In this document: positions 7,958-63,888 of the stretch, piece by piece
How positions within the stretch are numbered: position 1 is the first letter of the stretch
Layout of the letters: the number at the start of each line of letters is the position of its first letter
Source: a virus
IMG/VR virus record: IMGVR_UViG_3300002460_000024
Coordinates: 10,835 to 74,834 of that record
Reading direction: 5' to 3' (one strand)
Length of the DNA stretch: 64,000 nt
Notes under the pieces: model-generated
The model's database searches: none
Told to the model about the DNA's origin: nothing
What the model saw: the letters and a program-made list of their open reading frames with translations, nothing else
Translations under genes and position numbers: made by a program

Positions 7958-8527
7958 TCATTTTGGGGCGACGCGATTAATGCTGATGTATGGTGGAATT
8001 AGGCCGAGTCCTATCTTAAGTCGTAGTTTTTTAAAAATAAATATCGTCAAAACGAATACACCAATCCCAATACATACCCAACTTTGCCAGAAGGAGAGCC
8101 ACTTTTTCTTAATAACTACCGGAGGCGAATATTCAGAATGCCAATGTTCTTTTATTTCTTGGTAGTGATGCTCAAACCATTGAAGTTTTATTTTTACTTC
8201 GGCACACTCTCCGTCAACGGTTAAATGCCCATCTTTTACTTCTACTGTAGCTTTATTTCCTCTTTTGTCTATTTCTGTAACCTTAAAATCCTTACACGGT
8301 ACTGAATCTTTAAAATGAATCTCAAATGAATCTCTTGGGATTAAAACAACACTATCCCGTGGAACAATCGAGTCTTTTTTAATCACTATTATACTATCCT
8401 TAATTATTTTTGAGCAATGGGTAGAGCACCATTTGGCCGTATTGCAGCTACCAAGAAAAAAAATAGCAACTACTACCAATATAATTTTTATTATCACTAA
8501 CTCTAAAACTACTTTTTTTGCTCTCAT
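7958..8527 (-). CDS. Putative unimolecular spanin (lipoprotein with C-terminal TMD)
   Basis: Signal/lipobox FFLGSC, beta-rich middle, C-terminal TM WVCIGIGVFVLTIFIFKK. Confidence 0.6.
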   Translation of the reverse strand: MRAKKVVLELVIIKIILVVVAIFFLGSCNTAKWCSTHCSKIIKDSIIVIKKDSIVPRDSVVLIPRDSFEIHFKDSVPCKDFKVTEIDKRGNKATVEVKDGHLTVDGECAEVKIKLQWFEHHYQEIKEHWHSEYSPPVVIKKKWLSFWQSWVCIGIGVFVLTIFIFKKLRLKIGLGLIPPYISINRVAPK

Positions 8528-8528
8528 A

Positions 8529-8750
8529 TCAGGGTATTTCTATTTGTACTAAATCTTCTTTAGTCTTTTGAATTTTAGGTTGTTTTTTTAAGTACACATT
8601 TGCATCTTCCCAACCCCTTGCGCCTATTAAATCAGCATTCACAACCCATTTGCCATCTTTGGTTTCAAAGTATGGAATTTGTCGATGCTTTAATTTAAGC
8701 ATTTCGTTAATATTATCTATTTCTGTTTTATCTATTTCTACAAATGTCAT
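8529..8750 (-). CDS. Hypothetical protein
   Basis: 73-aa ORF overlapping the upstream gene. Confidence 0.7.
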   Translation of the reverse strand: MTFVEIDKTEIDNINEMLKLKHRQIPYFETKDGKWVVNADLIGARGWEDANVYLKKQPKIQKTKEDLVQIEIP

Positions 8751-9895
8751 AGGCCCATTGCTGTTAAAAGTGTTTCAAAATCAGATTTAAAATTAGCATA
8801 ATCTGTATCGTTAAACGTTCCAGTAGTAATCATTTGCAGGTACTGTTCTCTAGCGGTAAGTATAATCACTGATCCTGGCCCAATTCCTAATCCATGTCCG
8901 GTTATCTCTATGCCATTTTCGCTCGAGGAGGGCTTGGCTGTTGGTGTAACGGTGTCATTACTATAAACATTTGTTGATGCTGCGCCAGTTCTTACTGCGC
9001 CAAATAATCCTGTAGTAATAACCGGGCCATCGTTAGTGCCAGAATCATTTACACAACTGTTATTATCACCAGCACTATTCATTATAAGTCCTAGATAAGA
9101 TGTGGCTAAATCAGTACAACCAATATCCCAGCCAACTGCATCATTTGTATTGCTCCATATAAAAACTCCAACACTATTTAAAGATATTTCAGCAACAGCA
9201 TTTGGTATAATTCCAGTTCTTGTAAATTTAGTTAAAGCATTTCCTATCCTACCACCACCCTCCAAACAATTAGCATCCACAAAACCAACATTAGTAATTG
9301 GGTAATTACCTATAACCGTTACAGAACCATCTAAATTAAAATAAAAAGGAACCATTTTGGCCGCTGCATCTGCACCAAATACACAAATCTCTAAATGCAC
9401 TATTTTTGATCTATATGAGTTAGTTACCGCTGCGTCACGATCAAACCTATTGGCGATATTTTCTATCTGAGCCTGCGTATAAATTACGTCCACTAATAAA
9501 CCCCCATTATCAAAAACCCCCTCAACGTATGTTTTTACTTCGGGCCGATTCGCAACAGCAATAAAATTTATTTTTGTTTCAGTATCAAATCCACCATCGT
9601 TTGTAGCCGTCAACGCTATTGTCCAATCGCCAACTTTTTCAACCAATAATGTAGGATTTTGAGCAGTTGAAAAAACAACAACAACACTATCAGGATCAGT
9701 ATATGACCAACTCCATGAAGTAGGTGTATTTGTTGAGGTGTCTGTAAATGTTACGGTTTCACCCCATTCGGGAATTAGATCATTAACAGTAAAGTCAGCT
9801 ACCGGCGGATCAACCGCATTAACCAATCGTCTACGCTGCCTTGTTTTAAGGGGCTTATCCTTACGGACAAATCGTAAATTCTTTATTCCCCACAT
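8747..9895 (-). CDS. PKD-domain virion/receptor-binding protein
   Basis: PPVADF...VTFTDTSTNTPTSWSW...QNP...LTATN PKD signature; beta-rich C-terminal domain. Confidence 0.75.
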   Translation of the reverse strand: MWGIKNLRFVRKDKPLKTRQRRRLVNAVDPPVADFTVNDLIPEWGETVTFTDTSTNTPTSWSWSYTDPDSVVVVFSTAQNPTLLVEKVGDWTIALTATNDGGFDTETKINFIAVANRPEVKTYVEGVFDNGGLLVDVIYTQAQIENIANRFDRDAAVTNSYRSKIVHLEICVFGADAAAKMVPFYFNLDGSVTVIGNYPITNVGFVDANCLEGGGRIGNALTKFTRTGIIPNAVAEISLNSVGVFIWSNTNDAVGWDIGCTDLATSYLGLIMNSAGDNNSCVNDSGTNDGPVITTGLFGAVRTGAASTNVYSNDTVTPTAKPSSSENGIEITGHGLGIGPGSVIILTAREQYLQMITTGTFNDTDYANFKSDFETLLTAMGL

Positions 9896-10590
9896 TACCC
9901 TACATAAATTTCATACCTAACGGTAGCTGGATCAGCCCCATTTACTTCAATAATACGAGCATTTGTAATATTTGCCTTTCCAACAATATCAAAAGGATTC
10001 TCATCCACCACTAAAATACCAGTTGTGGTAGTAACGGCCACACCTGTTTCAAGGTAATTTATATCCCCACCTACCGTAGTGCCCATTAAAATCGGAGTTC
10101 TTGGATCTGTTGCCATATTATACCCTGGTCGTGTTTTTGTTATTGTGCATCTAGCCAAAGACGAAAACTCAATTACCACATAAGGAACATCGGCAGTTAC
10201 CGTGAAGGCTCCGGAACCAGTACTGGCTCCAGTAACTAAATCCTTCAATAATATCGCCGTGGCAGTTTGCAAGGATGAGTTAACCTGATACTCACTTGTA
10301 TTAAGTTGGGCCATTAAAGCTGCTGCAGTATTGGTTTGGGTCGTTACCCAGTCCTGATTAAAATATACAAAGTCTCCAGGTTGTCCCGGTAGTCCATATA
10401 GTTGTTGAGCCTCAAGTGAAGTAGCATATACCCTTATTCCCAATGCGGTAACCTGAGAAGCCACTGCAATTACAGCACCGGTCCATAGTTCGTTTTGGGT
10501 TGTTGTAAAGGCAGTTGAAGTTGTAGGGGTTAGTGATCCACTAAGGATTGCGTCTCCTAAAGATGCGCTTGATTTATCAATGAAGGCCAT
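9895..10590 (-). CDS. Putative structural protein
   Basis: T/A/G-rich, 231 aa, own promoter. Confidence 0.6.
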   Translation of the reverse strand: MAFIDKSSASLGDAILSGSLTPTTSTAFTTTQNELWTGAVIAVASQVTALGIRVYATSLEAQQLYGLPGQPGDFVYFNQDWVTTQTNTAAALMAQLNTSEYQVNSSLQTATAILLKDLVTGASTGSGAFTVTADVPYVVIEFSSLARCTITKTRPGYNMATDPRTPILMGTTVGGDINYLETGVAVTTTTGILVVDENPFDIVGKANITNARIIEVNGADPATVRYEIYVG

Positions 10591-10606
10591 ATTCGAATAA
10601 TTTTAT

Positions 10607-10614
10607 CAAATATA
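10607..10614 (-). promoter_or_regulatory. Bacteroidota sigma70 -7 box (TAnnTTTG)
   Basis: TATATTTG just upstream of ATG 10590. The same box type occurs at 7879, 18823, 27259, 36290, 37173, 41910, 50590, 51823, 54527 and 56951. Confidence 0.75.
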
Positions 10615-10635
10615 GGAAAATTTGGGGCGACGCAA

Positions 10636-10920
10636 TTAAAGTATTATAATTTCTTTGCCCTGTGCATCAAAAATATGACATGCATCATCCTTTTTTAGCC
10701 ATTTCACCTCATAAAACTCCTTAATACTATTGATCGGAATAACCCCATACTTAACCATCAGTGACGAATAAATGATATAATCTGTGTTAAATTGAAGGGG
10801 AATTGTTTGGTTTTCGACCTTTATCATCTCATAGCTTACCCTTGTGGCCTTAATCACCAATTTCTTACCACCATCATTAAAATCAATCAAGTATCCCTTT
10901 TTGTAATAAACTCTTTTCAT
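10636..10920 (-). CDS. Hypothetical protein
   Basis: 94-aa ORF. Confidence 0.65.
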   Translation of the reverse strand: MKRVYYKKGYLIDFNDGGKKLVIKATRVSYEMIKVENQTIPLQFNTDYIIYSSLMVKYGVIPINSIKEFYEVKWLKKDDACHIFDAQGKEIIIL

Positions 10921-10925
10921 ATTAA

Positions 10926-11624
10926 TTACGTCGCCCTATAAAACTCAAAATCCCCTAAAGGGCTTCTACCCTCTTTTATAGCATAAGCTATATCTTCCGG
11001 CCTGAGCCCTAAGCCTTCCTCTTCTATTTTCATTACTAATGACGCATTTAATGGCTTTGATTTATCCCCGGACAAAAATTCTTGCTCCATTTTTTGTAGG
11101 ATATCGGCTGTTTCCTTCCACTTCATAATATCTGTGGTGGTGGCATCCTTATTGTTTCGGAGCTTCTTCATACCTTCGTAGTATTTTTCTCGTAACGTAA
11201 CTATTGCTGAAAACATATCAGAATAACTATGTCTTAAGAACTCTACGATCATGTAATTCACTACCTCATTCTCTCCATCCATCATTTTCTCCACTAAATC
11301 CCCAAATTTTCCATTATCCGGGTCATAGTCAAATCCAGCTTGAATAGCACAGGCCACTTTTCTTTTGTCGTACTCTGGATAAGCGGCCTTTATGCAGTCC
11401 AACTCCATTGAATACATAAAATTTATATACCTGATAATCTTGTTTCTGGCGATTATCCTGGAATCGTCCGTTGATCCCCACGCAAAGAACCCGTAAGCAA
11501 AACCCCCAAGTCTGGTTAGTTCCGGCCTCTCTACTAAATAGTCATAATGGAGGGGAATCTCATGTATTCCCACTCCATCCTTTTTTATCCTGACCTTGTT
11601 TAGTTCTTCTTTAGTAAATTCCAT
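10926..11624 (-). CDS. Hypothetical phage protein
   Basis: 232-aa ORF. Confidence 0.75.
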   Translation of the reverse strand: MEFTKEELNKVRIKKDGVGIHEIPLHYDYLVERPELTRLGGFAYGFFAWGSTDDSRIIARNKIIRYINFMYSMELDCIKAAYPEYDKRKVACAIQAGFDYDPDNGKFGDLVEKMMDGENEVVNYMIVEFLRHSYSDMFSAIVTLREKYYEGMKKLRNNKDATTTDIMKWKETADILQKMEQEFLSGDKSKPLNASLVMKIEEEGLGLRPEDIAYAIKEGRSPLGDFEFYRAT

Positions 11625-11645
11625 GGTGGGGCGACGAGATTAATG

Positions 11646-11909
11646 TTACCTAAACTCTACTTTAAAATATTTATTTAACTCTTTACAAATATCCTCATTG
11701 CTGATTTTAGGCACTCCGGGTTTTCCCCAATTTGGTTTTATTTGAACCTCCCACCATCTATAAACCTGACTGATACAATATAACTCAATAGACTCTGGCC
11801 GTGTAAAATGACCCTCGTCTTGTTTTTTTCGCATACCATCCACAATGGTTTTAACAGCATATTCAACGGAATAGTCTATTTTTTCATTTCCTTTAATTTC
11901 GTCACCCAT
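11646..11909 (-). CDS. Hypothetical protein
   Basis: 87-aa ORF, translationally coupled. Confidence 0.65.
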   Translation of the reverse strand: MGDEIKGNEKIDYSVEYAVKTIVDGMRKKQDEGHFTRPESIELYCISQVYRWWEVQIKPNWGKPGVPKISNEDICKELNKYFKVEFR

Positions 11910-13102
11910 TATCCAGCCGATTTAGCAATTTTAATCATTTCCGTTATCTGTAATTCAGAAGCCTTTGCTAAGAACTCTAATATCATTGCATCGTCTCCTT
12001 TTGTAGTGTCCATCTCTGGTTTTAATGTCATTTTGCCAAAGGCGTAGATTATAGCCACAGGCACTACTCCCATCTTTCTGAGATTGTCCAATAACTGTAA
12101 ACAAATTTCTTCATCCCTGTCGGTTCCCATGTGTTCTGGGATATTAAAGTCTAAGTTCAACTTGTGGATGACGGGTAATATTTCTTCCTCTTGTGGTATT
12201 ACCGGTGGGGGCGACGTAATTAATGCTATCGCCGCTTCCTTTTCTAATTGAGTTTCCACCTTAATTTGGGCCCAAAACGCCTCTTCCCCAAATACCCTAA
12301 ATTGAATAATACATCTCCTGATCTTTAAATTGGATCTCCGAGGAAATTTATCAATTACTTTATATGGGTTAATTGGGCATAAATCGTTGTCTGCTGATCC
12401 ATAAATTTGAGTGGATGTTGAGGCGTAGATTTTGTCTAACGCTTCCACCACTTTCACTTCGCTCAAACAGGCATTTAAAGGGACCTTGATTTCCCAATCA
12501 CCGGCATTTATTTTGTCACATAAAATCTGACTTGGTTCTGGTTCTTCTTTTGCTGGTTTTTCAAGTGGCAAATCAACTAAGTTTTGCTCTTTTACTACTT
12601 CGGCTATGGCGGCCGCTAAATCGTCTTTAGGAGCCAACATCATTCCTTCGGGTGGTGCCATATCTTCTATTTTTACAGTAGGTTTAGGCTGTATAACGGC
12701 ATCCGGATGCTCTGAACTAAACGCCTTATCCCTTACCTGCTCTTTTGTCAACGAATTTCCACCCTCTTCGCCAGTATAAATCTTAAACAGCATCTTATAA
12801 AGATATTTTTCTGCCAAAGTTGCCGTCGCCCCAAAATGATAATCTCTACTACTTATAGGAAACGACATATTCGCTACACACCTACTATCATCTTCGGTAT
12901 CTACAAATTCCATTTCTAATAGAAAGGTGTCCCCAATAATTTGTCCATGTGGAATTGTGATGACTCCGTGGGTATTTAAAAGTGGAACCAATGCTTGATT
13001 CATTTGCTCATCCGAAATAATTTTTACTCCATCTACCTCTCTATCCTTTTTAAAGTCTGGAAGGGATTGTCTTATTAAAAGTATTTTTTTATATATGCTC
13101 AT
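11909..13102 (-). CDS. ERF-like ssDNA annealing protein
   Basis: MSIYKKIL...PLLNTHGV...GATATLAEKY...LFKI.TGE matches the ERF N-domain pattern; next to SSB and YqaJ. Confidence 0.65.
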   Translation of the reverse strand: MSIYKKILLIRQSLPDFKKDREVDGVKIISDEQMNQALVPLLNTHGVITIPHGQIIGDTFLLEMEFVDTEDDSRCVANMSFPISSRDYHFGATATLAEKYLYKMLFKIYTGEEGGNSLTKEQVRDKAFSSEHPDAVIQPKPTVKIEDMAPPEGMMLAPKDDLAAAIAEVVKEQNLVDLPLEKPAKEEPEPSQILCDKINAGDWEIKVPLNACLSEVKVVEALDKIYASTSTQIYGSADNDLCPINPYKVIDKFPRRSNLKIRRCIIQFRVFGEEAFWAQIKVETQLEKEAAIALITSPPPVIPQEEEILPVIHKLNLDFNIPEHMGTDRDEEICLQLLDNLRKMGVVPVAIIYAFGKMTLKPEMDTTKGDDAMILEFLAKASELQITEMIKIAKSAG

Positions 13103-13131
13103 TTTAGTATTTTAAAAGTGTTTCTGAATAT

Positions 13132-13836
13132 CTAAAAAGGTAAATCATCCTTCCATGTTTTATCGGCATCCGTTCCTCCACTTGTAGTTGCTGGTGCTGC
13201 ATCTTCCTCTACATGCTGATCCTCATTCAAATCTTTTACCGTAGTGCCAATAGAGGTGGAAGTGGTAGGTGCCTTTACCATTTCATACTTAGATAACACC
13301 TTATCAATTAAGGCATCGAAAAAATCATCCACGCCGGTATAATCATTAAGAGTTTTACCCTGATACTCCACTTTCTTCATCCGAGGCTCCAAATGCTCTT
13401 TGTACCCATACTTCATATCTACCTTCTCAGCGCCTCCCGAAGTAATAACCTTCACCGAAGCTCCAGCAAATCCCTTGTCTCCCCTATAAAAAGATATTTT
13501 TAATTGGTCTTTGAATGACGGCAAAGATGCTAGGCGATTAATTAATTCTCTCACCGGACCTGAGTATAACAGATCAAATACATACTTCTCATTCGCATCT
13601 GTATCGGTTAAAGTAAACCTGCACCCCCTCATTCTACCGTACTTCTCTACTATTTTATCCACCTTAGTAATCTCGGTGATATACCCCGTTAGGAAAGATA
13701 CCGTCTCCACCACCTCATACACCTCTCCCTTTTTTTGTTGCAGGTCCATGCAAGGGTAATCCTTTACATCTGCTTTTAAATTTTTAGGCTTTACATAAAA
13801 GTAAGTGCCTCCTGATTCTGTTGTACCTCTAGCCAT
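13132..13836 (-). CDS. Putative ssDNA-binding protein
   Basis: Acidic C-terminal tail ending DDLPF. Confidence 0.65.
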   Translation of the reverse strand: MARGTTESGGTYFYVKPKNLKADVKDYPCMDLQQKKGEVYEVVETVSFLTGYITEITKVDKIVEKYGRMRGCRFTLTDTDANEKYVFDLLYSGPVRELINRLASLPSFKDQLKISFYRGDKGFAGASVKVITSGGAEKVDMKYGYKEHLEPRMKKVEYQGKTLNDYTGVDDFFDALIDKVLSKYEMVKAPTTSTSIGTTVKDLNEDQHVEEDAAPATTSGGTDADKTWKDDLPF

Positions 13837-13837
13837 T

Positions 13838-14890: not shown

Positions 14891-15197
14891 AAAAATCTGT
14901 TTTTATTTTGATTAGCAACGGCAACTTTACGGTTAAAACATAGATTGCGTCGCCACACTCCCTACAAAACAACTGTATTTTAAAACTATCAACTAATGGA
15001 CTAGCCCCTCTTGATATCTTCAAATACTCAAAAGGCCCTATATAGGAGTGATCCTTTATTTTTATGATATGCCCATCTTTTTGTAATCGGCAAATAACCT
15101 TACCCCAAATATTTTTTATTTCAATATATGTTCCTTCTCTAAAATAAGAAGGTAGTTCGGGTGAAAATTTATATTTGTTAGGCTTCCAGGTTATCAT
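14862..15197 (-). CDS. Hypothetical protein
   Basis: 111-aa ORF. Confidence 0.55.
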   Translation of the reverse strand: MITWKPNKYKFSPELPSYFREGTYIEIKNIWGKVICRLQKDGHIIKIKDHSYIGPFEYLKISRGASPLVDSFKIQLFCRECGDAIYVLTVKLPLLIKIKTDFYVTKDTNRG

Positions 15198-18057: not shown

Positions 18058-18136
18058 GCTTTTTTAAGGTAATTTTATAGTGACTTCCTTTAAGTTCATT
18101 GCGTAAATATACACGTTTTCTCGTAATAAATAAAGT

Positions 18137-54509: not shown

Positions 54510-54558
54510 AAATACTTTGTTTTGGGCAAATATAGGAGAAAAACTTAAACATTAAAAT

Positions 54559-56934: not shown

Positions 56935-56963
56935 TCACTTTCATTTCCCACAAATATAGGAAA

Positions 56964-59402
56964 TTAGTGTTCAGCACCATAAATATCCTCAATGGACTCG
57001 TATTCGTCATCCTCTTCCTTTCGATCGAGCTTCTTGTACCCTTTATTTATGGGCCTTTGGGTGGACTGAATCAAGGCACCTCCAGCTGATGAGGCATTAT
57101 CTAACTTAGTTAAATCATCCTTTGAGTTCATTTTTCTGAATTGTTCGTAAATTTCAATATGGGGATCGTGCATGTAAAAAGCTATATGTTTTCTAGTAGC
57201 ATCAATTAAGGTGTCCATGGGCTGTTCGGCTCCCAGGTGGTAGCCAGATGATCCCCTATATGCGTTTTTCTCTGGAAGATATGCGTAAAATAATAGGCCG
57301 GCATAACCCCTTTTAATGAAATAAGGCTCTACTTTATTTTTGTTTCTTTCTGCATTTACCTTGGTTCCCCACCAGATAGCACACATTAACATCTCCTCAT
57401 TACACTCATCAATATCATCGATTTTGGCTGTGTAAGACCCAACAAACATCCCTGTTTCGCATTCGTTAATTGGTTTATTTAATTCCGATTCACTAAATGG
57501 TAAGTAAATCGCTGCCGTATAATATGATGTTCCAGACTTATCCTCCCTGGCTTTTGCCTGGTTGGCGTTGTGATATTCGTTTGGGTCAATACCAATAGAA
57601 TAGATATCATCAATATTTATATAATGCCCGGTCTCTAAATCTTTTTCAATTCTATTAGCCTGTTCTGGGGTTAGTTTTTTAGAGAACAAAAACCTTCCTT
57701 TTGAGTCAGGTATCCAATCTATATAGGCCTCTGGAATATCATAATCATCTAGCCGACTCCTTAAAAACTCTGCGGCAGTAAATACTCCTTTTCCTGGTAT
57801 TACCCAAACTAAATTACCTTTTTCTCTAGGATCGTTATCTAATGAGAATTGGCGACGCCAATAATCCATATGATCGTCCAATTTCTTTATGTCATATCCA
57901 ATATCGCCGCTACCGCCCCTCCAAATATCTGCGTATGTAGGGGGGTTTTGGCGTTTAAATTGGGCTAATTTCCGCATGTTATCCACGGTTGGATCAGATT
58001 CATATTCGGCAACTTTTGACTTAAGATATTCTCTGGAGCCTATATCCCATCCGGTGAATTCCGCTTGTTCGGGCGTTGGGTCCTCAATAATTGACTCTCC
58101 GTATGGACCAATAAAGTTTTCCAAACCATCCTCTGTGGGAAAATAAATTAAACATAATCCTGTTTTTGTTTGGCCTGACAGCGCACCCCGTTGATAGAAA
58201 TTAGAGGCTGTGCATATTTTCTGATAAGGCACTCCGGTTCCACCCTCCATATCCTCTACTGTAGAAGGCTTATAACAGAATGCGAATCTATTTCTTTCGG
58301 ATTCAGCCCCTTGAGACATTGTAGGTTTTAATAAGCTCCACTCTTCATAAACATCGTTTCCTTCTACTTTAGCCTCTTCATCACATAGAATATCACCAGT
58401 TATTTTGGCGTGGTCATAAAATCTTTTACTTACTACTGGAGAAAAATCTATTTTTCCATCTAGCTCTTTTGTTTCGGTCGAAACTGCCCTACTAAAATTC
58501 TTACTTCCTTCTTTTGCACCTGGCGCTTTAAATGAAAATTCTGTTTTTGGTCTGTTTGATCCATCCGAAACAGGTTTAAAGAAAAATGGCATCTTCCTAA
58601 CCATTGGCACAAACTTTACATTCCAGTGATTTCTGGATGTACTTTCAGCGTTTGCACATATTGAAGAGTGAGCTTGTGGGCCTGCTAGTTTCTTTGCTTT
58701 ACCGTATATTTTTGAAAGGGCCTTTCCGGTTTCACCACGCCTTCTGTTTTTTGGGTTGACATCGCCAAAAAATAAAAACCTTTTCAAATCTTTCATTTTA
58801 TAAGTTCCATCTTCCTCCGCTATCGCCATCCCCGTTTTATCTAATCGCTCAAAAGTTTCTGTGGTGGTAAATAGGTATTGGTGCATTATATCTATCCTCC
58901 TATCTACGTCTCTATACGATGGATAAAGACTTGATACTTTTCTTTTGGTGACGGGATCTGTAGAAACGTAATTTCCTGTACAGTAGGTAAGGTACTCGTA
59001 ATGTGTCGGCGGGAGCCACGTAGCCTTTCCGTTAATGTAAATCCAATAACCATAGGTTGTGAAATACCACTCTTCCCTTATAAATTCAATTTCGGCTTTA
59101 TAGTTTTCTTTATGGGCTATCAGTATTTTCCAGATATCGTCTGGGCGCCCGTCCATTTGCTTTTCGAGGTCTCTTAGTTTCTTTGGTATCTCTCTACGTT
59201 TGAAGTATTGGTCTTGTGGGGCGACGCCATAGTTGGCAATTTTCTCTGGCGGTGGATTTGAAATCGGACAATCTTTTGCATTGGGATTCCAAAACTTATA
59301 TACATTCGCTATTACCTTTGAAATATTTATCAGAATCGGCTTTAACGCTTCGTCTTGGTTGGCATAAAAGAAGGTGTCCGGTTTTTTATATTTATATTCC
59401 AT
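56964..59402 (-). CDS. terL: Terminase large subunit
   Basis: KNRRRGET Walker-A-like motif, LCDEEAK Walker B, YSIGIDP and ERN nuclease motifs. Confidence 0.85.
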   Translation of the reverse strand: MEYKYKKPDTFFYANQDEALKPILINISKVIANVYKFWNPNAKDCPISNPPPEKIANYGVAPQDQYFKRREIPKKLRDLEKQMDGRPDDIWKILIAHKENYKAEIEFIREEWYFTTYGYWIYINGKATWLPPTHYEYLTYCTGNYVSTDPVTKRKVSSLYPSYRDVDRRIDIMHQYLFTTTETFERLDKTGMAIAEEDGTYKMKDLKRFLFFGDVNPKNRRRGETGKALSKIYGKAKKLAGPQAHSSICANAESTSRNHWNVKFVPMVRKMPFFFKPVSDGSNRPKTEFSFKAPGAKEGSKNFSRAVSTETKELDGKIDFSPVVSKRFYDHAKITGDILCDEEAKVEGNDVYEEWSLLKPTMSQGAESERNRFAFCYKPSTVEDMEGGTGVPYQKICTASNFYQRGALSGQTKTGLCLIYFPTEDGLENFIGPYGESIIEDPTPEQAEFTGWDIGSREYLKSKVAEYESDPTVDNMRKLAQFKRQNPPTYADIWRGGSGDIGYDIKKLDDHMDYWRRQFSLDNDPREKGNLVWVIPGKGVFTAAEFLRSRLDDYDIPEAYIDWIPDSKGRFLFSKKLTPEQANRIEKDLETGHYINIDDIYSIGIDPNEYHNANQAKAREDKSGTSYYTAAIYLPFSESELNKPINECETGMFVGSYTAKIDDIDECNEEMLMCAIWWGTKVNAERNKNKVEPYFIKRGYAGLLFYAYLPEKNAYRGSSGYHLGAEQPMDTLIDATRKHIAFYMHDPHIEIYEQFRKMNSKDDLTKLDNASSAGGALIQSTQRPINKGYKKLDRKEEDDEYESIEDIYGAEH

Positions 59403-59433
59403 CTACCGCTAAGGTAAACGAAAAAAAATATCC

Positions 59434-60192
59434 TCACAACTTACACAGTACTTTGTTCCGCTGCATCCTTCCGAACTGCTTACCCTTACCCGCAAACGAC
59501 TGGTGCAAGTCAAATTCGAGGTCTATGGCTGCGAACTTCAAAAACCCAATTCTATCCCCCACTTTTAAATCAAACCTATCGTCTGGGAGGTTGCCAGACA
59601 TTTGCTTTCCACTACTATTGAACTGATCGTGGTAACGGGTGTTGGGCTTTCCTATAAATCTTATTGTTCCACTTTGGGCTTTTGATTCTTTCATGTTTTG
59701 GGGTAACGTTAACTTTGTTTCGCAGTCAGCATCGTCTTGTTCGACTAACATATATCCGTTAAGCATAATGACCCAATAATTAATTCCATCTAAACTTACT
59801 GTATTTGGATTAGGCCAATAAAGTTGTTTTCCATAATCCTCAAATGCCCATCTCCTTTTCACCAATATCAGCGCCTCATAAGCCACATAAATAAACAAGT
59901 GCCCATCCTCCTCATAAGACTTTCCATTAAATCTGGACACGCTAACATCTGTGCGCCTGAGAATAACTTCGTCGCCCACCATAGCCTCCATCTCACACTC
60001 CCACGGCATCATAGTATGATCCATGTTTTCGAAGATAAGTTTATTGGGCACTTGTACTACCTCACCTACTAATCTTTGGTGCCTCTCCTCATCATAACCT
60101 GTTTCTATTTGGATAGCTCCTATTCCTGGTAATTGAAGCTCATCTGTTTTTTTAGTAAGACGAATTAAAATATGATTGGTGTGTAATTTCAT
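59434..60192 (-). CDS. Tandem double GroES-like domain protein
   Basis: NHILI...GEVVQVP...VGDEVI and GYMLVE...LTLP...GTIRFIG...KVGDRIGF. Confidence 0.65.
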   Translation of the reverse strand: MKLHTNHILIRLTKKTDELQLPGIGAIQIETGYDEERHQRLVGEVVQVPNKLIFENMDHTMMPWECEMEAMVGDEVILRRTDVSVSRFNGKSYEEDGHLFIYVAYEALILVKRRWAFEDYGKQLYWPNPNTVSLDGINYWVIMLNGYMLVEQDDADCETKLTLPQNMKESKAQSGTIRFIGKPNTRYHDQFNSSGKQMSGNLPDDRFDLKVGDRIGFLKFAAIDLEFDLHQSFAGKGKQFGRMQRNKVLCKL

Positions 60193-60208
60193 GTGACGAG
60201 ATTAATGT

Positions 60209-60376
60209 TTAATTCAAATTTGTTTTAATATCCTCTTGAGTAAGGTTGGCCGAGTCGTCAAAGATGGGCTCATTCATAAAATAACAAATTATTTCTCTTC
60301 CCTTAACCGTATAAACTTTTCTACGATATATATTATCAAAAAAACTCAACCACTCAGTAAACGTTTTCTTTTCCAT
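60209..60376 (-). CDS. Small hypothetical protein (55 aa)
   Basis: Hand translation MEKKTFTEWLSFFDNIYRR... Confidence 0.45.
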   Translation of the reverse strand: MEKKTFTEWLSFFDNIYRRKVYTVKGREIICYFMNEPIFDDSANLTQEDIKTNLN

Positions 60377-60658
60377 CTAATTAAGTTTATATTTTTTCTT
60401 TTGTGCTTCTTCTGCTTGTTGATCTCTTTTAAATTTTGTTAGGGCTACGTCTTTATTGATAGCCGGTAAATAATAATATGCCATATCAAAATCTACCCTT
60501 GTAGTATCATAAGGCAACTCTATTTCTTCCACCTTATGAGTGGCGACGTGAATTTTCCACATCTTCTGCCCCGGCTCAACTATCAAGCCCTTTACCGCTT
60601 TGTTCTCGTAAATAAAAACTACTTTTTTTGCTAGTCCCATAATTTTAATTATTATCAC
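60377..60658 (-). CDS. Hypothetical protein
   Basis: 93-aa ORF. Confidence 0.6.
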   Translation of the reverse strand: MIIIKIMGLAKKVVFIYENKAVKGLIVEPGQKMWKIHVATHKVEEIELPYDTTRVDFDMAYYYLPAINKDVALTKFKRDQQAEEAQKKKYKLN

Positions 60659-61988
60659 TAAATACGTGAGTAGATGCGTTTACATTTAACCACTGCATAC
60701 CAACTCTTCCTTGTCTATTTTTTGCATGAACGATTCCTATTTTTCCATAACAGCTAGATGTTCCATTTCCGTCTCCCATATCAAACTGAAAATGTTCATC
60801 AAGTGCTGATGGATTCCAAAGAAGCCAAACACAATCTGAATGAGCCTCTATCGCCCCACTTCCTTTTAATAATCCCGCATGAGGTGGTTTTAATTTTTCA
60901 TTGCCAGAATCCTTAGTAAACTGAGCTAATAAAATAATTGGTATATCTAATTCTTTTGCCGTCACTTTTAATTCTCTACAAAAATTATCAATAGCTGGCT
61001 CCGATCCTCCATATTTCTTTGTCTCTAAATCACAAAGGCCAAGATAATCAATAACAGCTAATCCAATATCTTCTTCTTTTTTTAATTTTCTCAAAATGCT
61101 TTTTATTCGTCCAATTTTTATTCCAGAGGATAGGTCAATAAACACTTTCCTTTTTTCTATCCGACCTATCGCATATTCAATTTCTTTTAATTGTGAATCT
61201 GTTACCTGACCTGTTTTTAACGATTCAATTGATATTTTAGTATCCATAGCAATTTCCCTAATACCAACTTGCCTTCCAGACATCTCTTGCTCAAACATCA
61301 TTGTTGGAGTTCCTGATTTTTCGGCATTGTGTTGGATTGCTAATACTAAGGCTGATTTAAAAGTTCCGGGCCAACCGCCTGCCACAATAAGATCTCCTGG
61401 CTGCATACCGCCCGTAAATTTATCCATGCTGTCATATCCGGTAGACACTCCACTAAGTCCCGTTTTTGATCCATGAGCCTTATGGATGGATTGACGGGCC
61501 TCTTCTAATCTTGCTCTTGGGCTAAAATCGGTTGTATTAAAATGAACTAGTTGATCCAAAACGCCTTGAAATTTAGATACCAAATCAAAAACATCCTCCT
61601 CCTCATTATACCCCGCATTTCCCATTTCTATACTAATCCTTATTAGCTCCCTACGAAGGAACTTTTCATACAAAATAGCTGAATGCACCTGCACGTTGGT
61701 TGTAGAAATAACCGAAGATGTAAGGTCAACAACAAAAGTTACGTCGCCAATAATTGCCAAAGAATCCACAACCTTAATCTTATTGCTTACTGTCCTAAGG
61801 TCTATTGGCTCATTATTTTCTGATAATTCCTTTATTGCCCGATAAACCACCTGATGCGCTGGTTTATAAAAAACCTGTTCTTTTAAAAATTCTATGGTTT
61901 TGTCGTAAGCATCTGCATCGAGAATTAAAGAGCCCAAAACTACTTGTTCAATATCAATTGCCTGTGGGGGAAGTTTATCGTAGTTCAT
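60645..61988 (-). CDS. dnaB: Replicative DNA helicase
   Basis: PPQAIDIEQVVLG, GVSTGY..D..TGG, GGWPGTFKS, IDYL, GSGAIE..SD, AKNRQG. Confidence 0.95.
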   Translation of the reverse strand: MNYDKLPPQAIDIEQVVLGSLILDADAYDKTIEFLKEQVFYKPAHQVVYRAIKELSENNEPIDLRTVSNKIKVVDSLAIIGDVTFVVDLTSSVISTTNVQVHSAILYEKFLRRELIRISIEMGNAGYNEEEDVFDLVSKFQGVLDQLVHFNTTDFSPRARLEEARQSIHKAHGSKTGLSGVSTGYDSMDKFTGGMQPGDLIVAGGWPGTFKSALVLAIQHNAEKSGTPTMMFEQEMSGRQVGIREIAMDTKISIESLKTGQVTDSQLKEIEYAIGRIEKRKVFIDLSSGIKIGRIKSILRKLKKEEDIGLAVIDYLGLCDLETKKYGGSEPAIDNFCRELKVTAKELDIPIILLAQFTKDSGNEKLKPPHAGLLKGSGAIEAHSDCVWLLWNPSALDEHFQFDMGDGNGTSSCYGKIGIVHAKNRQGRVGMQWLNVNASTHVFSDNN

Positions 61989-62701
61989 TATTGAATAGTT
62001 TTATGAATAGCCGCAACTCCATTAGTCGGATTGCTATTTTTAACAATACTTTCTTTGTTTTTGTGATACCAATGAGAAAAATATCTCTTTAGATTGCTTA
62101 ATGAATACTTTTCGTTCGAAACCATACAAATTGCCTTAAAGGAACCAATTGCTACCGAAAAATGATAATCAGAAAGGGAATATTGTTTTTTAACCAAATC
62201 TCGCCACTCACCATCCATGACCATTTCTTTAAAAAATTCTTCTAAGGCTTCGCCAGATTTCTCTAAATATATATTATCCTTTTCTTTTATATTCTTTCCT
62301 TTCCTTTCCTTTATAGCATTGCTATCGGATTGCGTTCGCAATGCGTTCGCATTTGGTTCTTTTTCTTTCCATCTCTTATTTGCTGATTCTCTTGCTTTTA
62401 TAGATTTTTTATTTCTTACATCTAACCGTCTCTGAACCGACAAAGAGCCAAACGAATCTCCATCTACCACAAAAAGACCAAAATCATTTATGACACTTTT
62501 TACTATTTCGGGGATTGTATGAAGATCATACGCAATACTATCGTAATGCGTTGGCAATGCGTTCGCATTTTGATAAAGATCTTCTACTAAGGCCCAAAAT
62601 ATACCATACCCCATCCATCCGTGTTTAGCCAATAGTTTCTTTATCTTCCCATCGGTACGAACATTGTAGTCATGTGAAAAATAAAAGGTATCGTTTGCCA
62701 T
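61988..62701 (-). CDS. Phage replication initiator (DUF4373/Lin1244-like N-terminus)
   Basis: YFSHD.N.R.D.KI..L..KHG..GYGIFWALVE.LY; ANKRW; coupled to dnaB. Confidence 0.8.
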   Translation of the reverse strand: MANDTFYFSHDYNVRTDGKIKKLLAKHGWMGYGIFWALVEDLYQNANALPTHYDSIAYDLHTIPEIVKSVINDFGLFVVDGDSFGSLSVQRRLDVRNKKSIKARESANKRWKEKEPNANALRTQSDSNAIKERKGKNIKEKDNIYLEKSGEALEEFFKEMVMDGEWRDLVKKQYSLSDYHFSVAIGSFKAICMVSNEKYSLSNLKRYFSHWYHKNKESIVKNSNPTNGVAAIHKTIQ

Positions 62702-62865
62702 ATCACAAAAACACCATCGAGGGGGTGGCTGTAATCCGCTAAGACTTGAGGCGCACCCTGACCCGGTGGTTTATTTTAAATAAATTGTTATTTGAATCTT
62801 CATTTTAGCGGATTACATTATTTACCACAATACTATGGCTTCTTTTTTAAACTTCCAAATTTTGT

Positions 62866-63042
62866 TTATTTCTTTTCTAGCCACCAGTTTTCAATAGATA
62901 CTGTGCCATCCTCGTTGTCCTTAATCACTGACTTCGGATACCAACCTTGTTTTCCTTCTACCTCTGCAAACGCCGATAACTTTTTGGTACGAAAATTCTT
63001 TCTATCGTACATTATTCGACCCTTTTTTATGGATGACGCCAT
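62866..63042 (-). CDS. Small hypothetical protein (58 aa)
   Basis: TAATG coupling; W.PKSVI...IENWWLEKK. Confidence 0.55.
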   Translation of the reverse strand: MASSIKKGRIMYDRKNFRTKKLSAFAEVEGKQGWYPKSVIKDNEDGTVSIENWWLEKK

Positions 63043-63311
63043 TAATGTTTAATTCTCCTTTTATTTTTAGGCCTATCCTTTGCGCGTGAAGGCATTTTGT
63101 GGTGAATTACTTTAATGTTATCCATAATATAAAAACGCCTTCCTAAAATTCTTTTTCCGGCTCCATCCAATGTCCACTTAGGTAAACAATCAACCTCCTT
63201 GGTTCCTAAATTAATTTCTTGTCTCAAAGTGTTTTTAACCTTGGATGGTCCAACTGTTTCGTAAAGAATGTAGTATCCATTTCTGCGTTTAAATGTTCTA
63301 AGATTTCCCAT
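63042..63311 (-). CDS. Hypothetical basic protein
   Basis: 89-aa ORF. Confidence 0.6.
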   Translation of the reverse strand: MGNLRTFKRRNGYYILYETVGPSKVKNTLRQEINLGTKEVDCLPKWTLDGAGKRILGRRFYIMDNIKVIHHKMPSRAKDRPKNKRRIKH

Positions 63312-63339
63312 TGTTTTGTTTATTTATTTGATTAATAAT

Positions 63340-63888
63340 TCACACATAAACCTCTGTTATTACATCTGAGTAGTCCAGATAGTACGTTACTGCATCTGCT
63401 ACTTTATTATAAAATATCAATGCTGTTTCTGAGGGGTGGTCCGACGCAATTAATCCCCACTCGTACAACTCTGATGTCATTCCTTGGCCTAACAAATCCT
63501 TAAACATAGCATCTTCGGGAGCAATTTTATTGAATTTATAATACCAAGTATAAAACAAAGTGGCAGAAATAATAATCGTCGGGCCGCTTTCAAATCCTGT
63601 GGCTTGGCGAAATAAATGTAATGTTTCTCTATTATAGCACCTGATCCACATTGAAATAGAGCCCCATTTAGCAATAATTGCGTCACCCCTCATGTACTTA
63701 TCCACTGCATTCAGCTTCAATCCTACTGCCTCCAGTAAAAGAACAACTCCTTCAAATGGTGGTTTTGTTTCTCGGCTTAAGTACTTAGAATAAGAAACTG
63801 GATTGACCTTCTTTGTCTTAGCGCATAATGCTTCAATCGAAATTTTCTCCTTTAGTCTGCGGGATTCTATGATATCTATAACATTCAT
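63340..63888 (-). CDS. Protein with an N-terminal XRE-like HTH
   Basis: RRLKEKISIEALC...YSKYL..ETKP....V..LLEAVGL. Confidence 0.65.
   Translation of the reverse strand: MNVIDIIESRRLKEKISIEALCAKTKKVNPVSYSKYLSRETKPPFEGVVLLLEAVGLKLNAVDKYMRGDAIIAKWGSISMWIRCYNRETLHLFRQATGFESGPTIIISATLFYTWYYKFNKIAPEDAMFKDLLGQGMTSELYEWGLIASDHPSETALIFYNKVADAVTYYLDYSDVITEVYV

What the first reader, a model, noticed from the sequence alone, without database searches (positions are those of the whole stretch)
7965..63689. Genome-wide asymmetric motif GGGCGACGNRATTAAT, polar and enriched at gene junctions
Seen: about 30 strong copies counted by eye (23 plus, 8 minus; coordinates in features) and about 15 partial ones (e.g. 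24245, 27756, 31291, 57851, 59218, 60542). They occur on average about every 2 kb despite a CpG-rich core in AT-rich DNA. Many overlap stops or starts or fill short intergenic gaps: 10624, 10921, 11628, 20983, 23914, 27310, 39431, 60193, 63034. No copy was noticed in the first 7.9 kb. Known analogues: mycobacteriophage stoperators (asymmetric repressor sites oriented with transcription), Chi sites and DNA uptake sequences. Inference: a phage-wide protein-binding grid for silencing, genome organisation, ejection/packaging or self-marking. Candidate readers are the HTH proteins at 15989-16186 and 63340-63888.
Basis: partly seen in the sequence, partly recalled or inferred. Interest (0 to 1): 0.88.

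Follow-up and report, generated by a model that had tools for sequence, protein, structure and literature searches.

The report
Phage genome saturated with one DNA word
An uncultured 75-kb groundwater phage carries about 110 copies of one 20-letter asymmetric DNA word, on both strands and mostly inside genes through codon choice; the copies are most likely docking sites for one of the phage's own DNA-binding proteins, at a density far above known phage operator networks.

Summary
The pattern GGGCGACGNRATTAAT (up to 2 mismatches) occurs 32 times in the window; 0.2 are expected. A 21-nt matrix (TWG-GGGCGACG-NR-ATTAAT-ST, about 19 bits) finds 86 sites in the window and 113 in the whole 74.8-kb genome; 2.3 are expected.

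- **Selection on DNA:** a shuffle of synonymous codons leaves only about 13 of the 87 sites that lie inside genes.
- **No polarity:** 61 sites are on the plus strand and 52 on the minus; 48 point with transcription and 59 against it. Spacing is Poisson-like.
- **Junctions:** the enrichment at gene junctions is real but modest (23% against 8% expected).
- **Motif-free zone:** it coincides with the integron-like cassette array.
- **Lineage-specific:** a sister phage (about 55% amino-acid identity) has about 19 copies of a shorter form, and four sites of 48 compared lie at the same positions in both. More distant relatives, 2.9 million viral contigs and the bacterial genome rows returned show no clustering.

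Best reading (about 0.5): dispersed docking sites of a phage DNA-binding protein with two reading heads, an over-grown operator network. The likeliest reader is the 182-aa HTH protein at 63340-63888. Reader and purpose are untested.

This scan has flagged similar genome-wide words in other uncultured phages (AI notes, not checked here).

The parts
7409..63691 (.). Whole family in the window: 86 matrix sites (49 plus, 37 minus). Each site is 21 nt; the 16-nt core starts 3 nt into the site. Starts: 7409-, 7963+, 10541-, 10622+, 10919-, 11626+, 11890-, 12206+, 12814-, 13692-, 14063+, 14938-, 15249+, 16185+, 16818+, 16975-, 18425+, 19129+, 19140-, 19215-, 19686-, 20978+, 21142-, 21303-, 23271+, 23807-, 23875+, 23909+, 24245+, 24402-, 24967+, 25431+, 26015-, 26969+, 27306+, 27317-, 27753+, 28897+, 30001+, 30503+, 31283-, 31287+, 31875+, 31940-, 32636-, 33001+, 34107+, 34234+, 34896+, 35322+, 36753+, 38937+, 39116-, 39429-, 39473+, 41292-, 41960+, 42168-, 42388+, 42810-, 45491-, 46403+, 47401+, 47526+, 48207-, 50685+, 50758-, 52936+, 53914-, 54251+, 55082-, 56147-, 56642-, 56713-, 56765-, 57847+, 58943+, 59216+, 59698+, 59960-, 60188+, 60538+, 61732-, 63028+, 63436+, 63671-
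   Evidence: Matrix scan at 12 bits or more; 2.3 sites are expected in the whole genome from dinucleotide shuffles.
7966..7981 (+). Exact copy GGGCGACGCGATTAAT, at the 3' end of the minus-strand gene 7958-8527; best matrix score (28.8 bits).
10625..10640 (+). Copy with 1 mismatch. It fills the gap between genes 9895-10590 and 10636-10920, and its TTA is the stop codon of the upstream gene.
10921..10936 (-). Exact copy. It contains the stop of gene 10926-11624 and abuts the ATG of gene 10636-10920.
11629..11644 (+). Exact copy that makes up the whole 21-nt gap between genes 10926-11624 and 11646-11909.
12209..12224 (+). Exact copy inside the ERF-like recombinase gene 11909-13102, antisense.
14066..14081 (+). 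Copy with 1 mismatch inside the YqaJ-like exonuclease gene 13838-14890, antisense.
23878..23893 (+). Copy with 1 mismatch near the 5' end of the 712-aa methyltransferase-domain gene. A second, weaker copy lies 34 nt on (matrix site at 23909).
27306..27337 (.). Bivalent site: two copies on opposite strands, offset by 11 nt, forming a near-palindrome (TTGGCGACGAGATTAATCCCGTAACCCAAA). It lies in the 211-bp gap between the giant gene and gene 26229-27242.
19129..19160 (.). Bivalent site inside gene 18835-20514. An orthologous bivalent site exists in the sister phage (G001 58545, GGCGACGCAGTTAATTGCGTC).
35325..35340 (+). Copy with 1 mismatch, one of 16 matrix sites inside the 2939-aa gene 27454-36273.
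36756..36771 (+). Copy with 1 mismatch in the 305-bp divergent intergenic region 36711-37015.
39431..39446 (-). Exact copy at the convergent junction of genes 38650-39435 (+) and 39447-41231 (-).
41294..41309 (-). Copy with 1 mismatch inside gene 41231-41893.
50688..50703 (+). Copy with 1 mismatch inside gene 50646-51941. A convergent partner lies 73 nt away (matrix site at 50758-).
54254..54269 (+). Copy with 1 mismatch (28.3 bits) inside gene 53391-54509. The orthologous stretch in the sister phage shares only 6 of 21 letters.
48207..48227 (-). Site conserved in position in the sister phage (TTGAGACGACGCAATTAATGA against TTGAGGTGACGCAATTAATGA).
12814..12834 (-). Example of the variant 3' half: GGGGCGACG-GC-AACTTTGG. 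AACTTT follows the ACG core 9 times in the genome and ATCTTT 5 times.
1..7408 (.). Motif-free zone (8.3 kb in genome coordinates 9996-18242). It coincides with the integron-like cassette array of small plus-strand genes.
   Evidence: earlier findings. At 1.7 sites per kb, a chance gap of this size has a probability of about 1e-6.
63340..63888 (-). Candidate reader P0011: 182 aa, N-terminal XRE-type HTH plus a helical C-terminal domain. It belongs to a rare family; its homologue in the sister phage is 33% identical.
15989..16186 (-). Second candidate P0012: a 65-aa Cro/CI-type HTH_3 protein, 60% identical in the sister phage. A variant motif copy (16185+) abuts its start codon.
10622..11910 (.). 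Two small minus-strand genes (10636-10920 and 11646-11909), each bracketed by an inward-facing pair of copies (10622+/10919- and 11626+/11890-). The second gene is absent from the sister phage.

Best explanation
The word is a bipartite, asymmetric recognition site of about 20 bp. It has a G/C-rich head (TWG-GGGCGACG, with invariant GnGACG), two free bases, and an A/T-rich tail (ATTAAT-S-T; position 17 is never T). It most likely serves as the docking site of one phage-encoded, sequence-specific DNA-binding protein that reads it with two heads, as a monomer or as an asymmetric complex.

The ancestor already had a small dispersed operator-type network. The sister phage has about 19 sites, including a cluster with a palindromic double site in its early regulatory region. 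In this lineage the site grew longer at its 5' end and multiplied about six-fold. Codon choice has written it into nearly every gene, on either strand, at random spacing. Recently imported cassettes have none.

Inferred consequences:
- The protein coats or marks the phage chromosome specifically. 45 sites score 20 bits or more, and by extrapolation from the shuffles a host genome would hold almost none.
- It acts as a global regulator or silencer of the phage's own genes, leaving the cassette array unbound.
- The most plausible reader is the 182-aa XRE-HTH two-domain protein at 63340-63888.

Shown: existence, excess, selection at the DNA level, asymmetry, lack of polarity, lineage history. Inferred: that a protein reads the word, which protein, and what binding achieves.
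For: - **Excess over every null:**
- **Written in by codon choice:** the sites inside genes use only stop-free reading frames, on both strands. Amino-acid identity to the sister phage is no lower at site codons than elsewhere in the gene (0.508 against 0.520).
- **Size of a protein footprint:** the information is confined to 22 contiguous positions, about 19 bits, with a two-block layout. There is no hairpin potential and no longer shared flanks, so a mobile element or an RNA structure is unlikely.
- **True asymmetry:** T occurs 0 times in 113 at position 17, where a palindrome would predict T or C.
- **Three bivalent palindromic arrangements**. One lies about 100 bp upstream of the invertase gene in an early intergenic region that holds three copies. 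One is conserved in position in the sister phage.
- **Regulatory clusters:** the sister phage has three copies within 100 bp, including a palindrome next to a TATAAT, in its divergent early region. Our divergent region holds three copies.
- **Lineage-specific sequence and copy number,** as for co-evolving repressor and operator pairs (PMC6550527).
- **Candidate reader architecture:** P0011 has an XRE HTH (Z 9.0, rmsd 1.6, 58 residues aligned) plus a second helical domain with a helix-turn-helix and beta-hairpin layout (model pLDDT 84.6). This is the same size and layout as the monomeric two-domain L5/TipsytheTRex repressor (PMC9283540). Its homologue in the sister phage is only 33% identical, against a typical 45-76% for other shared proteins.
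Against: - No binding data exist. The link between reader and site is architectural analogy only.
- The fold match of the C-terminal domain to winged-helix proteins is weak (MarR-type Z about 7, within noise for helical proteins).
- 77% of sites are inside genes and orientation is random. This differs from all characterised operator and stoperator systems, and 113 sites are far more than regulation would need.
- Many intergenic gaps, including most in the structural region, have no site.
- No integrase or clear lysogeny module was found. The only recombinases are a small serine invertase and, according to earlier findings of this scan, a broken cassette recombinase. A prophage-silencing role is therefore conjecture.
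- The motif-free cassette array is explained equally well by recent acquisition.
- The variant 3' half AACTTTGG (9 copies) is not explained.
Confidence: 0.5

Rival explanations
1. Self-identity or protection mark. The word lets a translocating or scanning enzyme tell phage DNA from host DNA: a phage or host helicase-nuclease, a recombination or replication loader, or a DNA-modifying enzyme. Examples are attenuating a nuclease as Chi does, or recruiting the ERF/YqaJ or DnaB machinery. More copies, anywhere and in either direction, would then be better.
For: - Copy number is high, spacing is Poisson-like, both strands are used and most sites are inside genes.
- The information content is enough to be almost absent from a bacterial genome: 45 sites score 20 bits or more, and shuffles give 0.2 per genome-length at 16 bits or more.
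- The word is absent from the imported cassettes.
- Asymmetry is natural for a signal read on one strand.
- The phage encodes ERF, a YqaJ exonuclease, NinG/Rap, DnaB and a DnaD-like initiator.
Against: - Known Chi sites are 5-8 nt long and skewed with replication (general knowledge). This word is 16-20 nt and has no skew.
- The sister phage keeps a sparse version and lacks the DnaB and DnaD-like genes.
- The palindromic double sites and regulatory-region clusters fit a classical DNA-binding regulator better.
Confidence: 0.2
2. Recombination sites. The copies are half-sites or whole sites of the phage's small serine recombinase (DNA invertase family; genome 4487-5197, outside the window). Alternatively they are 20-bp 'linker' homologies at which gene modules are exchanged.
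For: - A full palindrome of two copies spans 26-30 bp, the size of a hix, gix or res crossover site (site sizes from general knowledge). One such palindrome lies 100 bp upstream of the invertase gene.
- The invertase has an intact YRRVSTGKQ catalytic motif.
- Three small genes are bracketed by inverted pairs of copies, and two of them are absent from the sister phage.
- One metagenome contig joins window 20978 to 11628, both of them motif copies.
Against: - Only 3 of about 113 sites are dyads. The rest are strictly asymmetric, with position 17 never T.
- 110 recombination-proficient sites would scramble the genome.
- The sister phage has the invertase (58% identity) but no site next to it.
- Synteny breakpoints against the sister phage coincide with copies no more often than gene boundaries in general do (informal count).
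- The single joint comes from one low-depth contig.
Confidence: 0.1
3. Site-specific single-strand interruptions. The word directs a phage nickase to nick packaged DNA, as in T5, phiKMV-like phages and phage tf. Candidates are the Vsr-like DUF559 protein at 16183-16641 and the HNH enzyme outside the window.
For: - Long asymmetric consensus sequences are known for phage nick sites (general knowledge, not checked in papers here).
- The phage encodes a DUF559/Vsr-like endonuclease that is conserved in the sister phage.
Against: - Known systems have a few to about a dozen nicks, mostly on one strand. Here there are more than 100 on both strands.
- Three pairs of sites lie 11 bp apart on opposite strands and would become double-strand breaks.
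Confidence: 0.05
4. Transcription signal: a promoter of a phage-specific RNA polymerase or sigma factor, or a terminator.
For: - No excess of sigma-70-type or Bacteroidota-type promoters was found, so the phage's promoters are unidentified.
- The best copies sit at gene junctions.
- Read on the coding strand, an A/T block, a specificity block and an A-rich stretch loosely recall promoters of single-subunit polymerases (from memory).
Against: - Orientation relative to genes is random, 48 against 59.
- 77% of the sites are inside genes.
- About two thirds of the intergenic gaps of 15 bp or more lack a copy.
- No RNA polymerase or sigma gene was detected. The 2939-aa protein has no DxDxD catalytic motif.
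- There is no hairpin with a T-run.
Confidence: 0.04
5. No function. The word is a by-product of amino-acid or codon bias, or of a mutational or gene-conversion drive, or it was borrowed from the host (a DNA uptake sequence or a host repeat).
For: - Most positions are not conserved between sister lineages: only 4 of 48.
- A drive would explain random placement.
Against: - A synonymous-codon shuffle removes about 85% of the sites inside genes.
- There is no peptide motif: both strands and four of the six possible reading frames are used.
- No known drive has a 20-bp specificity.
- The exact word occurs only as singletons in the 120 bacterial stretches and 56 viral contigs returned.
Confidence: 0.06

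Closest known systems
Operator/stoperator sites of Cluster A mycobacteriophages (L5 gp71, TipsytheTRex repressor; PMC9283540, PMC6550527)
   Same: - The site is asymmetric and present in many copies dispersed over the whole phage genome, in regulatory regions and beyond.
- The motif differs between related lineages.
- The proposed reader has the same size (182 against 183 aa) and the same layout: an N-terminal HTH plus a second helical domain.
   Different: - 13 bp and a little over 20 sites there; about 20 bp and 113 sites here.
- Stoperators lie in short intergenic spaces and predominantly in one orientation relative to transcription, and reversing them abolishes function. Here 77% are inside genes and orientation is random.
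- There is no sequence or significant fold match to the stoperator domain.
- Lysogeny is not established for this phage.
C1 repressor operators of bacteriophage P1 (22 dispersed asymmetric 17-bp operators, consensus ATTGCTCTAATAAATTT; PMC8546580)
   Same: - A long asymmetric operator is scattered over a large phage genome.
- Single sites occur alongside a few overlapping double ('bivalent') palindromic sites. The bivalent P1 operators are from my own knowledge and were not checked in a paper here.
   Different: - P1 operators sit at promoters of specific operons. Here the density is about six times higher per kb (five times as many sites) and most sites are in coding sequence.
- No C1 homologue was looked for specifically.
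17-bp dyad-symmetric repeats of Cluster O mycobacteriophages (PMC4351075, abstract seen)
   Same: More than 30 copies of one word lie throughout a phage genome, many at gene boundaries, with no known reader.
   Different: Those repeats are palindromic and mostly intergenic. This word is asymmetric and mostly inside genes.
DNA uptake sequences (Neisseria DUS, Pasteurellaceae USS) and Chi sites
   Same: The word is written into coding sequence in frames that tolerate it, on both strands, roughly one per kb. It is absent from recently acquired DNA, and its positions turn over between relatives.
   Different: - Those are properties of bacterial chromosomes, read by the uptake machinery or by RecBCD/AddAB.
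- Chi is 5-8 nt long and strand-skewed.
Crossover sites of small serine recombinases (hix, gix, res site I)
   Same: - The half-site is bipartite, with an outer specific block and an inner A/T-rich block.
- The three double sites have the right length, and one lies next to the invertase gene.
   Different: About 110 sites are single and strictly asymmetric, and they are spread over the whole genome.

Membership tests
Cluster A-type stoperator network | Asymmetric site present in more than 20 copies dispersed across the phage genome | tested here: met
   113 sites; asymmetry shown by position 17 never being T.
Cluster A-type stoperator network | [quoted passage not shown] | tested here: not met
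   48 co-directional against 59 antisense, p 0.33. The 15 best sites of known local direction split 4 against 11, p 0.12.
Cluster A-type stoperator network | Sites in promoter regions and short intergenic spaces | tested here: not met
   87 of 113 sites lie fully inside genes. Junctions are enriched only 3-fold.
Cluster A-type stoperator network | Bound by a monomeric two-domain immunity repressor | not testable with these tools
   Only a candidate with an analogous layout is available (P0011). There is no binding assay.
Cluster A-type stoperator network | Motif co-varies with the repressor among related phages | tested here: inconclusive
   Only one sister lineage was available. Its motif is shorter (GACGCA[AG]TTAAT) and its P0011 homologue is 33% identical.
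P1 C1-type dispersed operators | Long asymmetric operator in many dispersed copies, some as overlapping palindromic pairs | tested here: met
   Three bivalent pairs with an 11-nt offset among 113 sites.
P1 C1-type dispersed operators | Operators overlap promoters of the regulated operons | tested here: inconclusive
   Promoters could not be identified. Most sites are inside genes.
DNA uptake sequence (DUS/USS) | Same word at high density in the chromosome of the (host) bacterium | tested here: inconclusive
The host is unknown.
Chi-like recombination hotspot | Short (5-8 nt) word, strand-skewed with replication or DNA-end polarity | tested here: not met
   The core is 16-20 nt. There are 61 plus and 52 minus sites, with no regional strand runs.
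Serine-recombinase crossover site (hix/gix/res) | Imperfect dyad of two 12-13-bp half-sites around a central dinucleotide | tested here: not met
   Only 3 dyads were found. In the other sites the right flank does not mirror the left.
Serine-recombinase crossover site (hix/gix/res) | Site adjacent to the recombinase gene | tested here: inconclusive
   This holds in this phage (double site 100 bp upstream) but not in the sister phage.
Phage nick sites (T5, phiKMV-like, tf) | Single-strand interruptions in virion DNA at the consensus | not testable with these tools
   Only assembled contigs were available and no molecule ends were reported.
Phage-polymerase or sigma promoter | Copies lie upstream of genes, oriented with them, and a cognate polymerase or sigma gene is present | tested here: not met
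   Orientation is random, most sites are inside genes, and no such gene was found in the proteins scanned.

The most novel reading that the evidence does not exclude
The word is a chromosome-wide 'self code' of a phage. It is a high-information mark, about one per 660 bp, kept in nearly every native gene by selection on the DNA itself. A dedicated phage protein reads it to tell the phage's own chromosome from host DNA and from imported cassettes, for example to shield it, compact it or license it for replication or packaging. This would be a class of cis-element not described for phages. It is distinct from operators, and it can expand six-fold within one lineage.
Probability: 0.25. Interest if true: 0.85.

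Novelty: new variant of a known kind. Interest (0 to 1): 0.68.

Why it matters
Dispersed asymmetric operators are known from a few cultured temperate phages, with about 20 to 36 sites that are oriented and lie in intergenic regions or at promoters. This phage has one site per 660 bp. Most are inside genes, they point either way, and they are kept by codon choice. The sister lineage preserves a sparse precursor.

If one protein reads these sites, this would be the densest sequence-specific protein-DNA network described in a virus. It would also be a tractable case of how such a network grows. The consensus and a short list of candidate readers allow direct tests by EMSA or DAP-seq.

The sharp contrast with the motif-free cassette array offers a way to tell native from imported DNA in phage genomes. 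Other reports from this scan describe similar words in unrelated uncultured phages, so the phenomenon may be general and overlooked.

Tried and rejected
- **Close DNA relatives:** megablast of 20 kb of the window against cultured phages found no match.
- **Closer relatives in assemblies:** Their DNA could not be fetched, so the test of co-variation between motif and reader could not be run.
- **Metagenome scan:** it returned only relatives with 22-29% portal identity. IMG/VR added nothing closer than the sister group.
- **Distant relatives:** none carries the word or any comparable one, and neither does Cellulophaga phage phi18:3 (Pachyviridae).
- **P0011 relatives:** the word-index search found only the protein itself. 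The full HMMER search found a family of 18. IMG/VR scans with that family failed or found nothing.
- **Fold searches of P0011:** only the XRE HTH domain gave a match. The C-terminal domain gave MarR- and MotA-like matches at Z about 7, which is within noise. The protein atlas gave no usable lead.
- **Sequencing runs:** no RNA holder was listed. All runs are kept as contigs, so starts, ends, nicks and minor rearrangements could not be seen. Short-sided joints at 11904 are probably motif-to-motif mis-alignments.
- **Rejected on the data:** regular spacing or clustering (coefficient of variation 0.98); a link between the word and the hexamer tandem repeat at the contig ends; extra amino-acid cost at the sites; Bacteroidota-type or sigma-70-type promoters next to the sites; RNA polymerase motifs in the giant protein.
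- **Not run:** Complex prediction, because it does not model DNA.

Full report
**Setting.** The window is bases 10835-74834 of a single-contig virus record of 74,834 bp. Both contig ends lie in a (GGCTAC/GGCGAC)n tandem array, so the contig is probably a closed or permuted genome broken within that repeat.

The large terminase resembles that of Cellulophaga Pachyviridae (phi18:3, phi46:3) and of the Flavobacterium 'elemo' phages only distantly, at 24% identity. Public runs that hold the phage are groundwater and soil metagenomes.

Genes recognised:
- large terminase, portal, virion proteins and a 2939-aa protein with no family match
- GroEL and a GroES-like domain
- an ERF-type annealing protein, a YqaJ exonuclease and a NinG/Rap-like protein
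- DnaB and a DnaD/Lin1244-like initiator
- class I methyltransferases and a glycosyltransferase-like protein
- a GH108 lysin
- a Vsr-like DUF559 endonuclease and an HNH/NUMOD4/AP2 endonuclease
- a small serine recombinase of the DNA-invertase family
- two HTH_3 proteins

No DNA polymerase, RNA polymerase or sigma factor was found.

**The observation.** GGGCGACGNRATTAAT with up to 2 mismatches occurs 32 times in the window; 0.22 are expected. I aligned the hits with their flanks and iterated a 21-nt log-odds matrix. This gave 113 sites of 12 bits or more in the genome against 2.3 in dinucleotide shuffles, 99 of 14 bits or more against 0.66, and 80 of 16 bits or more against 0.2. The window holds 86 of them.

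Other nulls agree:
- A matrix-free degenerate pattern (GN[GA]ACG-NN-AWYWWT) occurs 61 times against 2.1 (order-3 Markov) and 4.5 (order-5 Markov).
- Shuffling synonymous codons within each gene keeps every protein, the codon usage and all intergenic DNA. It leaves 39 sites, of which about 26 are the untouched non-genic ones. Shuffling codon order leaves 23.

The excess is therefore a property of the DNA, not of the proteins or of composition.

**Anatomy.**
- Information is confined to positions -3 to +19, about 19 bits in total.
- The layout is a T/G-rich lead-in (TWG), the head G1-G2-G3-C/T4-G5-A6-C7-G8 (A6, C7 and G8 in 110-113 of 113 sites), two nearly free positions (9, 10), then A11 (108 of 113), T12, T13, W14, W15, T16 (104 of 113), S17 (G 58, C 41, A 14, T 0) and T18.
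- The 15 nt upstream are C-poor.
- The palindromic ATTAAT core does not make the site symmetric. A mirror image would put T or C at position 17, and T never occurs there.
- No stem-loop is possible, and copies share nothing beyond these 22 positions. That argues against a transposable element or a structured RNA.
- A minority of sites has another 3' half after the same head: AACTTT(GG) 9 times and ATCTTT 5 times. I cannot explain this.
- Three places hold two copies on opposite strands offset by 11 nt, forming near-palindromes of 26-30 bp: genome 4351/4362, window 19129/19140 and window 27306/27317.

**Distribution.**
- Strand: 61 plus and 52 minus.
- Direction relative to local transcription: 48 with and 59 against (p 0.33). 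Only the 15 best sites of known local direction lean antisense, 11 to 4 (p 0.12).
- Spacing: nearest-neighbour spacing has a coefficient of variation of 0.98 (null 0.83-1.17). There are no more close pairs than chance gives, and the orientations of neighbours are random.
- Location: 87 sites lie inside genes, 12 straddle a gene end and 14 are intergenic. That is 23% not fully genic against 8-9% of positions (p about 1e-6), rising to 41% among sites of 24 bits or more.
- At junctions the word often supplies the stop (TAG before the head, or TAA inside ATTAAT) or the start (ATTAATG, or CAT before the head). Sometimes it is the whole intergenic gap.
- About two thirds of the gaps of 15 bp or more have no copy.
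- Inside genes only stop-free frames are used, with the cheaper codon sets preferred: sense xxG GGC GAC GNR ATT AAT in 27 sites, antisense ATT AAT YNC GTC GCC in 25.
- Amino-acid identity to the sister phage at site codons (0.508) equals the gene average (0.520; 57 sites). The sites are threaded through positions that tolerate them.

**The motif-free zone.** No site lies between genome 9996 and 18242 (window 1-7408). At 1.7 sites per kb this gap is far beyond chance. It coincides with the plus-strand block of small genes that earlier reports of this scan describe as an integron-like cassette array. I did not re-examine the array itself. Either the cassettes arrived too recently to have acquired the word, or they must stay free of it.

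**History.** IMG/VR holds a syntenic sister phage of 69.2 kb (G001, fetched as L181-L184). It shares about half of the genes at 27-76% amino-acid identity.
- It has 19 sites of 12 bits or more. The form is shorter, GACGCA[A/G]TTAAT, and lacks the GGGC extension.
- Of 48 of our genic sites that can be mapped onto it, 4 are also sites there. They include the double site inside the glycosyltransferase-like gene. The median orthologous score is -7 bits.
- Its divergent early regulatory region has three copies within 100 bp, one of them a palindrome flanked by TATATA/TATAAT. Our equivalent region (genome 3060-3761) has three copies, and the next two gaps have four more.
- Relatives with 25-33% portal identity and phage phi18:3 have background levels and no other comparable word.
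- The exact 16-mer occurs once each in 56 of 2.9 million viral contigs.

The simplest history is an ancestral network of 10-20 sites that grew about six-fold, and lengthened, in this lineage.

**What it is most likely to be.** A contiguous, two-block, asymmetric site of about 20 bp, with a few bivalent palindromic versions and a cluster in the early control region, looks like the footprint of a sequence-specific DNA-binding protein. The closest precedents are two.
[quoted passage not shown] The motif tracks the repressor across lineages (PMC6550527).
- The 22 asymmetric 17-bp C1 operators of P1 (PMC8546580).

This phage departs from both in ways I could test. Orientation is random, whereas stoperators need one orientation. 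Three quarters of the sites are inside genes. The density is about six times that of P1's C1 operators. I therefore describe it as working like a dispersed operator network but do not file it as a stoperator system.

**Candidate readers.**
- **P0011 (window 63340-63888, 182 aa).** The model has pLDDT 84.6. It shows an N-terminal XRE-type HTH (Z 9.0 to ClgR, 8.1 to P22 c2), a linker, and a helical C-terminal domain that ends in a helix-turn-helix followed by a beta-hairpin. The only matches of that domain are weak MarR-like and MotA-like ones (Z about 7). The family is rare: 18 representatives among 1.84 billion proteins. In the sister phage the homologue is the third gene of the early operon next to the site cluster, and it is only 33% identical. 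Two reading heads in one chain would suit an asymmetric two-block site. This is analogy, not evidence of binding.
- **P0012 (15989-16186, 65 aa).** This HTH_3 protein is more likely a symmetric dimer.
- **The invertase.** It has its catalytic serine motif and a double site about 100 bp upstream of its gene. The single sites are not dyads, and the sister phage has no site beside its invertase gene.

**What binding would do.** This part is inference. The bit content means that a host genome of similar composition would hold almost no sites as strong as the phage's best 45. This is extrapolated. The protein would thus mark or coat phage DNA selectively. A global silencer or regulator that leaves the accessory cassettes free is one coherent picture. 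A self-mark that shields the chromosome, or licenses it for recombination, replication or packaging, is the main rival. That rival accounts better for the number and randomness of the sites.

The recombination-site reading rests on the three dyads and on pairs of copies bracketing three small genes. It also rests on a single low-depth contig that joins window 20978 to 11628, both motif copies. I rate it low but worth checking with raw reads. Nick sites, promoters, terminators, uptake sequences and a functionless drive each fail at least one test. The details are given under the rival explanations.

**Limits.**
- No binding, expression or virion-DNA data could be obtained.
- Runs are held only as contigs, and no RNA holder was listed.
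- Gene calls are my own longest-ORF calls.
- The matrix was trained on the same genome it counts. The independent pattern counts and the shuffles support the numbers at 14 bits or more best.

**Verdict.** This is a genuine and unusually dense DNA signal specific to one phage lineage. It is a new variant of dispersed phage operator-type sites, and its reader and purpose are still open.

Noticed in passing
window 63914-64000 (and genome 1-110, outside the window): A tandem hexamer array (GGCTAC/GGCGAC)n on the minus strand encodes a Gly-Tyr/Gly-Asp repeat protein that spans the contig junction. The contig is probably a circular or permuted genome broken in this repeat. The GGCGACGG words here are unrelated to the motif.
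   Followed up: partly
sister phage G001 (L181-L184), whole record: The sister phage has its own over-represented short word, (A)ACTACGT(T). ACTACGT occurs 31 times and the 8-mer AACTACGT 22 times against 3.5 expected. Most copies are on the sense strand in one reading frame. Our phage has only 2 copies.
   Followed up: partly
window 10622-10939, 11626-11910, 20978-21162: Three small minus-strand genes (94, 87 and 60 aa) are each bracketed by an inward-facing pair of motif copies. The 87-aa and 60-aa genes have no homologue in the sister phage.
   Followed up: partly
window 20978 and 11628 (run X8): One metagenome contig (depth 4.6) joins 20978 back to 11628 with one extra A. Both ends are plus-strand motif copies. 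In that strain the 87-aa gene with its motif seems to sit beside the 93-aa gene.
   Followed up: no
window 15586-15988: Strains in runs X5 and X8 lack the 134-aa gene 15588-15992. The joint shares 9 nt on both sides. The gene is also absent from the sister phage.
   Followed up: no
genome 1-10900 (L180) and the whole genome: There is no excess of sigma-70-type promoters (38 found, 38.7 expected), and no Bacteroidota-type TTTG...TAnnTTTG promoter lies in any intergenic region. The phage's promoters and its host's promoter type remain unidentified.
   Followed up: partly
window 27454-36273: This 2939-aa ORF has no Pfam or PHROG match and no DxDxD polymerase motif. Its first 1300 residues are 29% identical to part of a roughly 4180-aa ORF in the sister phage. 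It carries 16 motif sites, 12 of them on the plus strand.
   Followed up: partly
window 12814, 16185, 31287, 39473, 56765, 59698 and others: After the same GNGACG head, a second 3' half recurs: AACTTT(GG) 9 times and ATCTTT 5 times. This hints at an alternative binding mode or a second partner.
   Followed up: partly
genome 4351-4382 and 4487-5197 (outside the window, L180): An intact small serine recombinase of the DNA-invertase family (catalytic motif YRRVSTGKQ) lies 100 bp downstream of a palindromic double copy of the motif. Seven motif copies lie between genome 3294 and 4480.
   Followed up: partly
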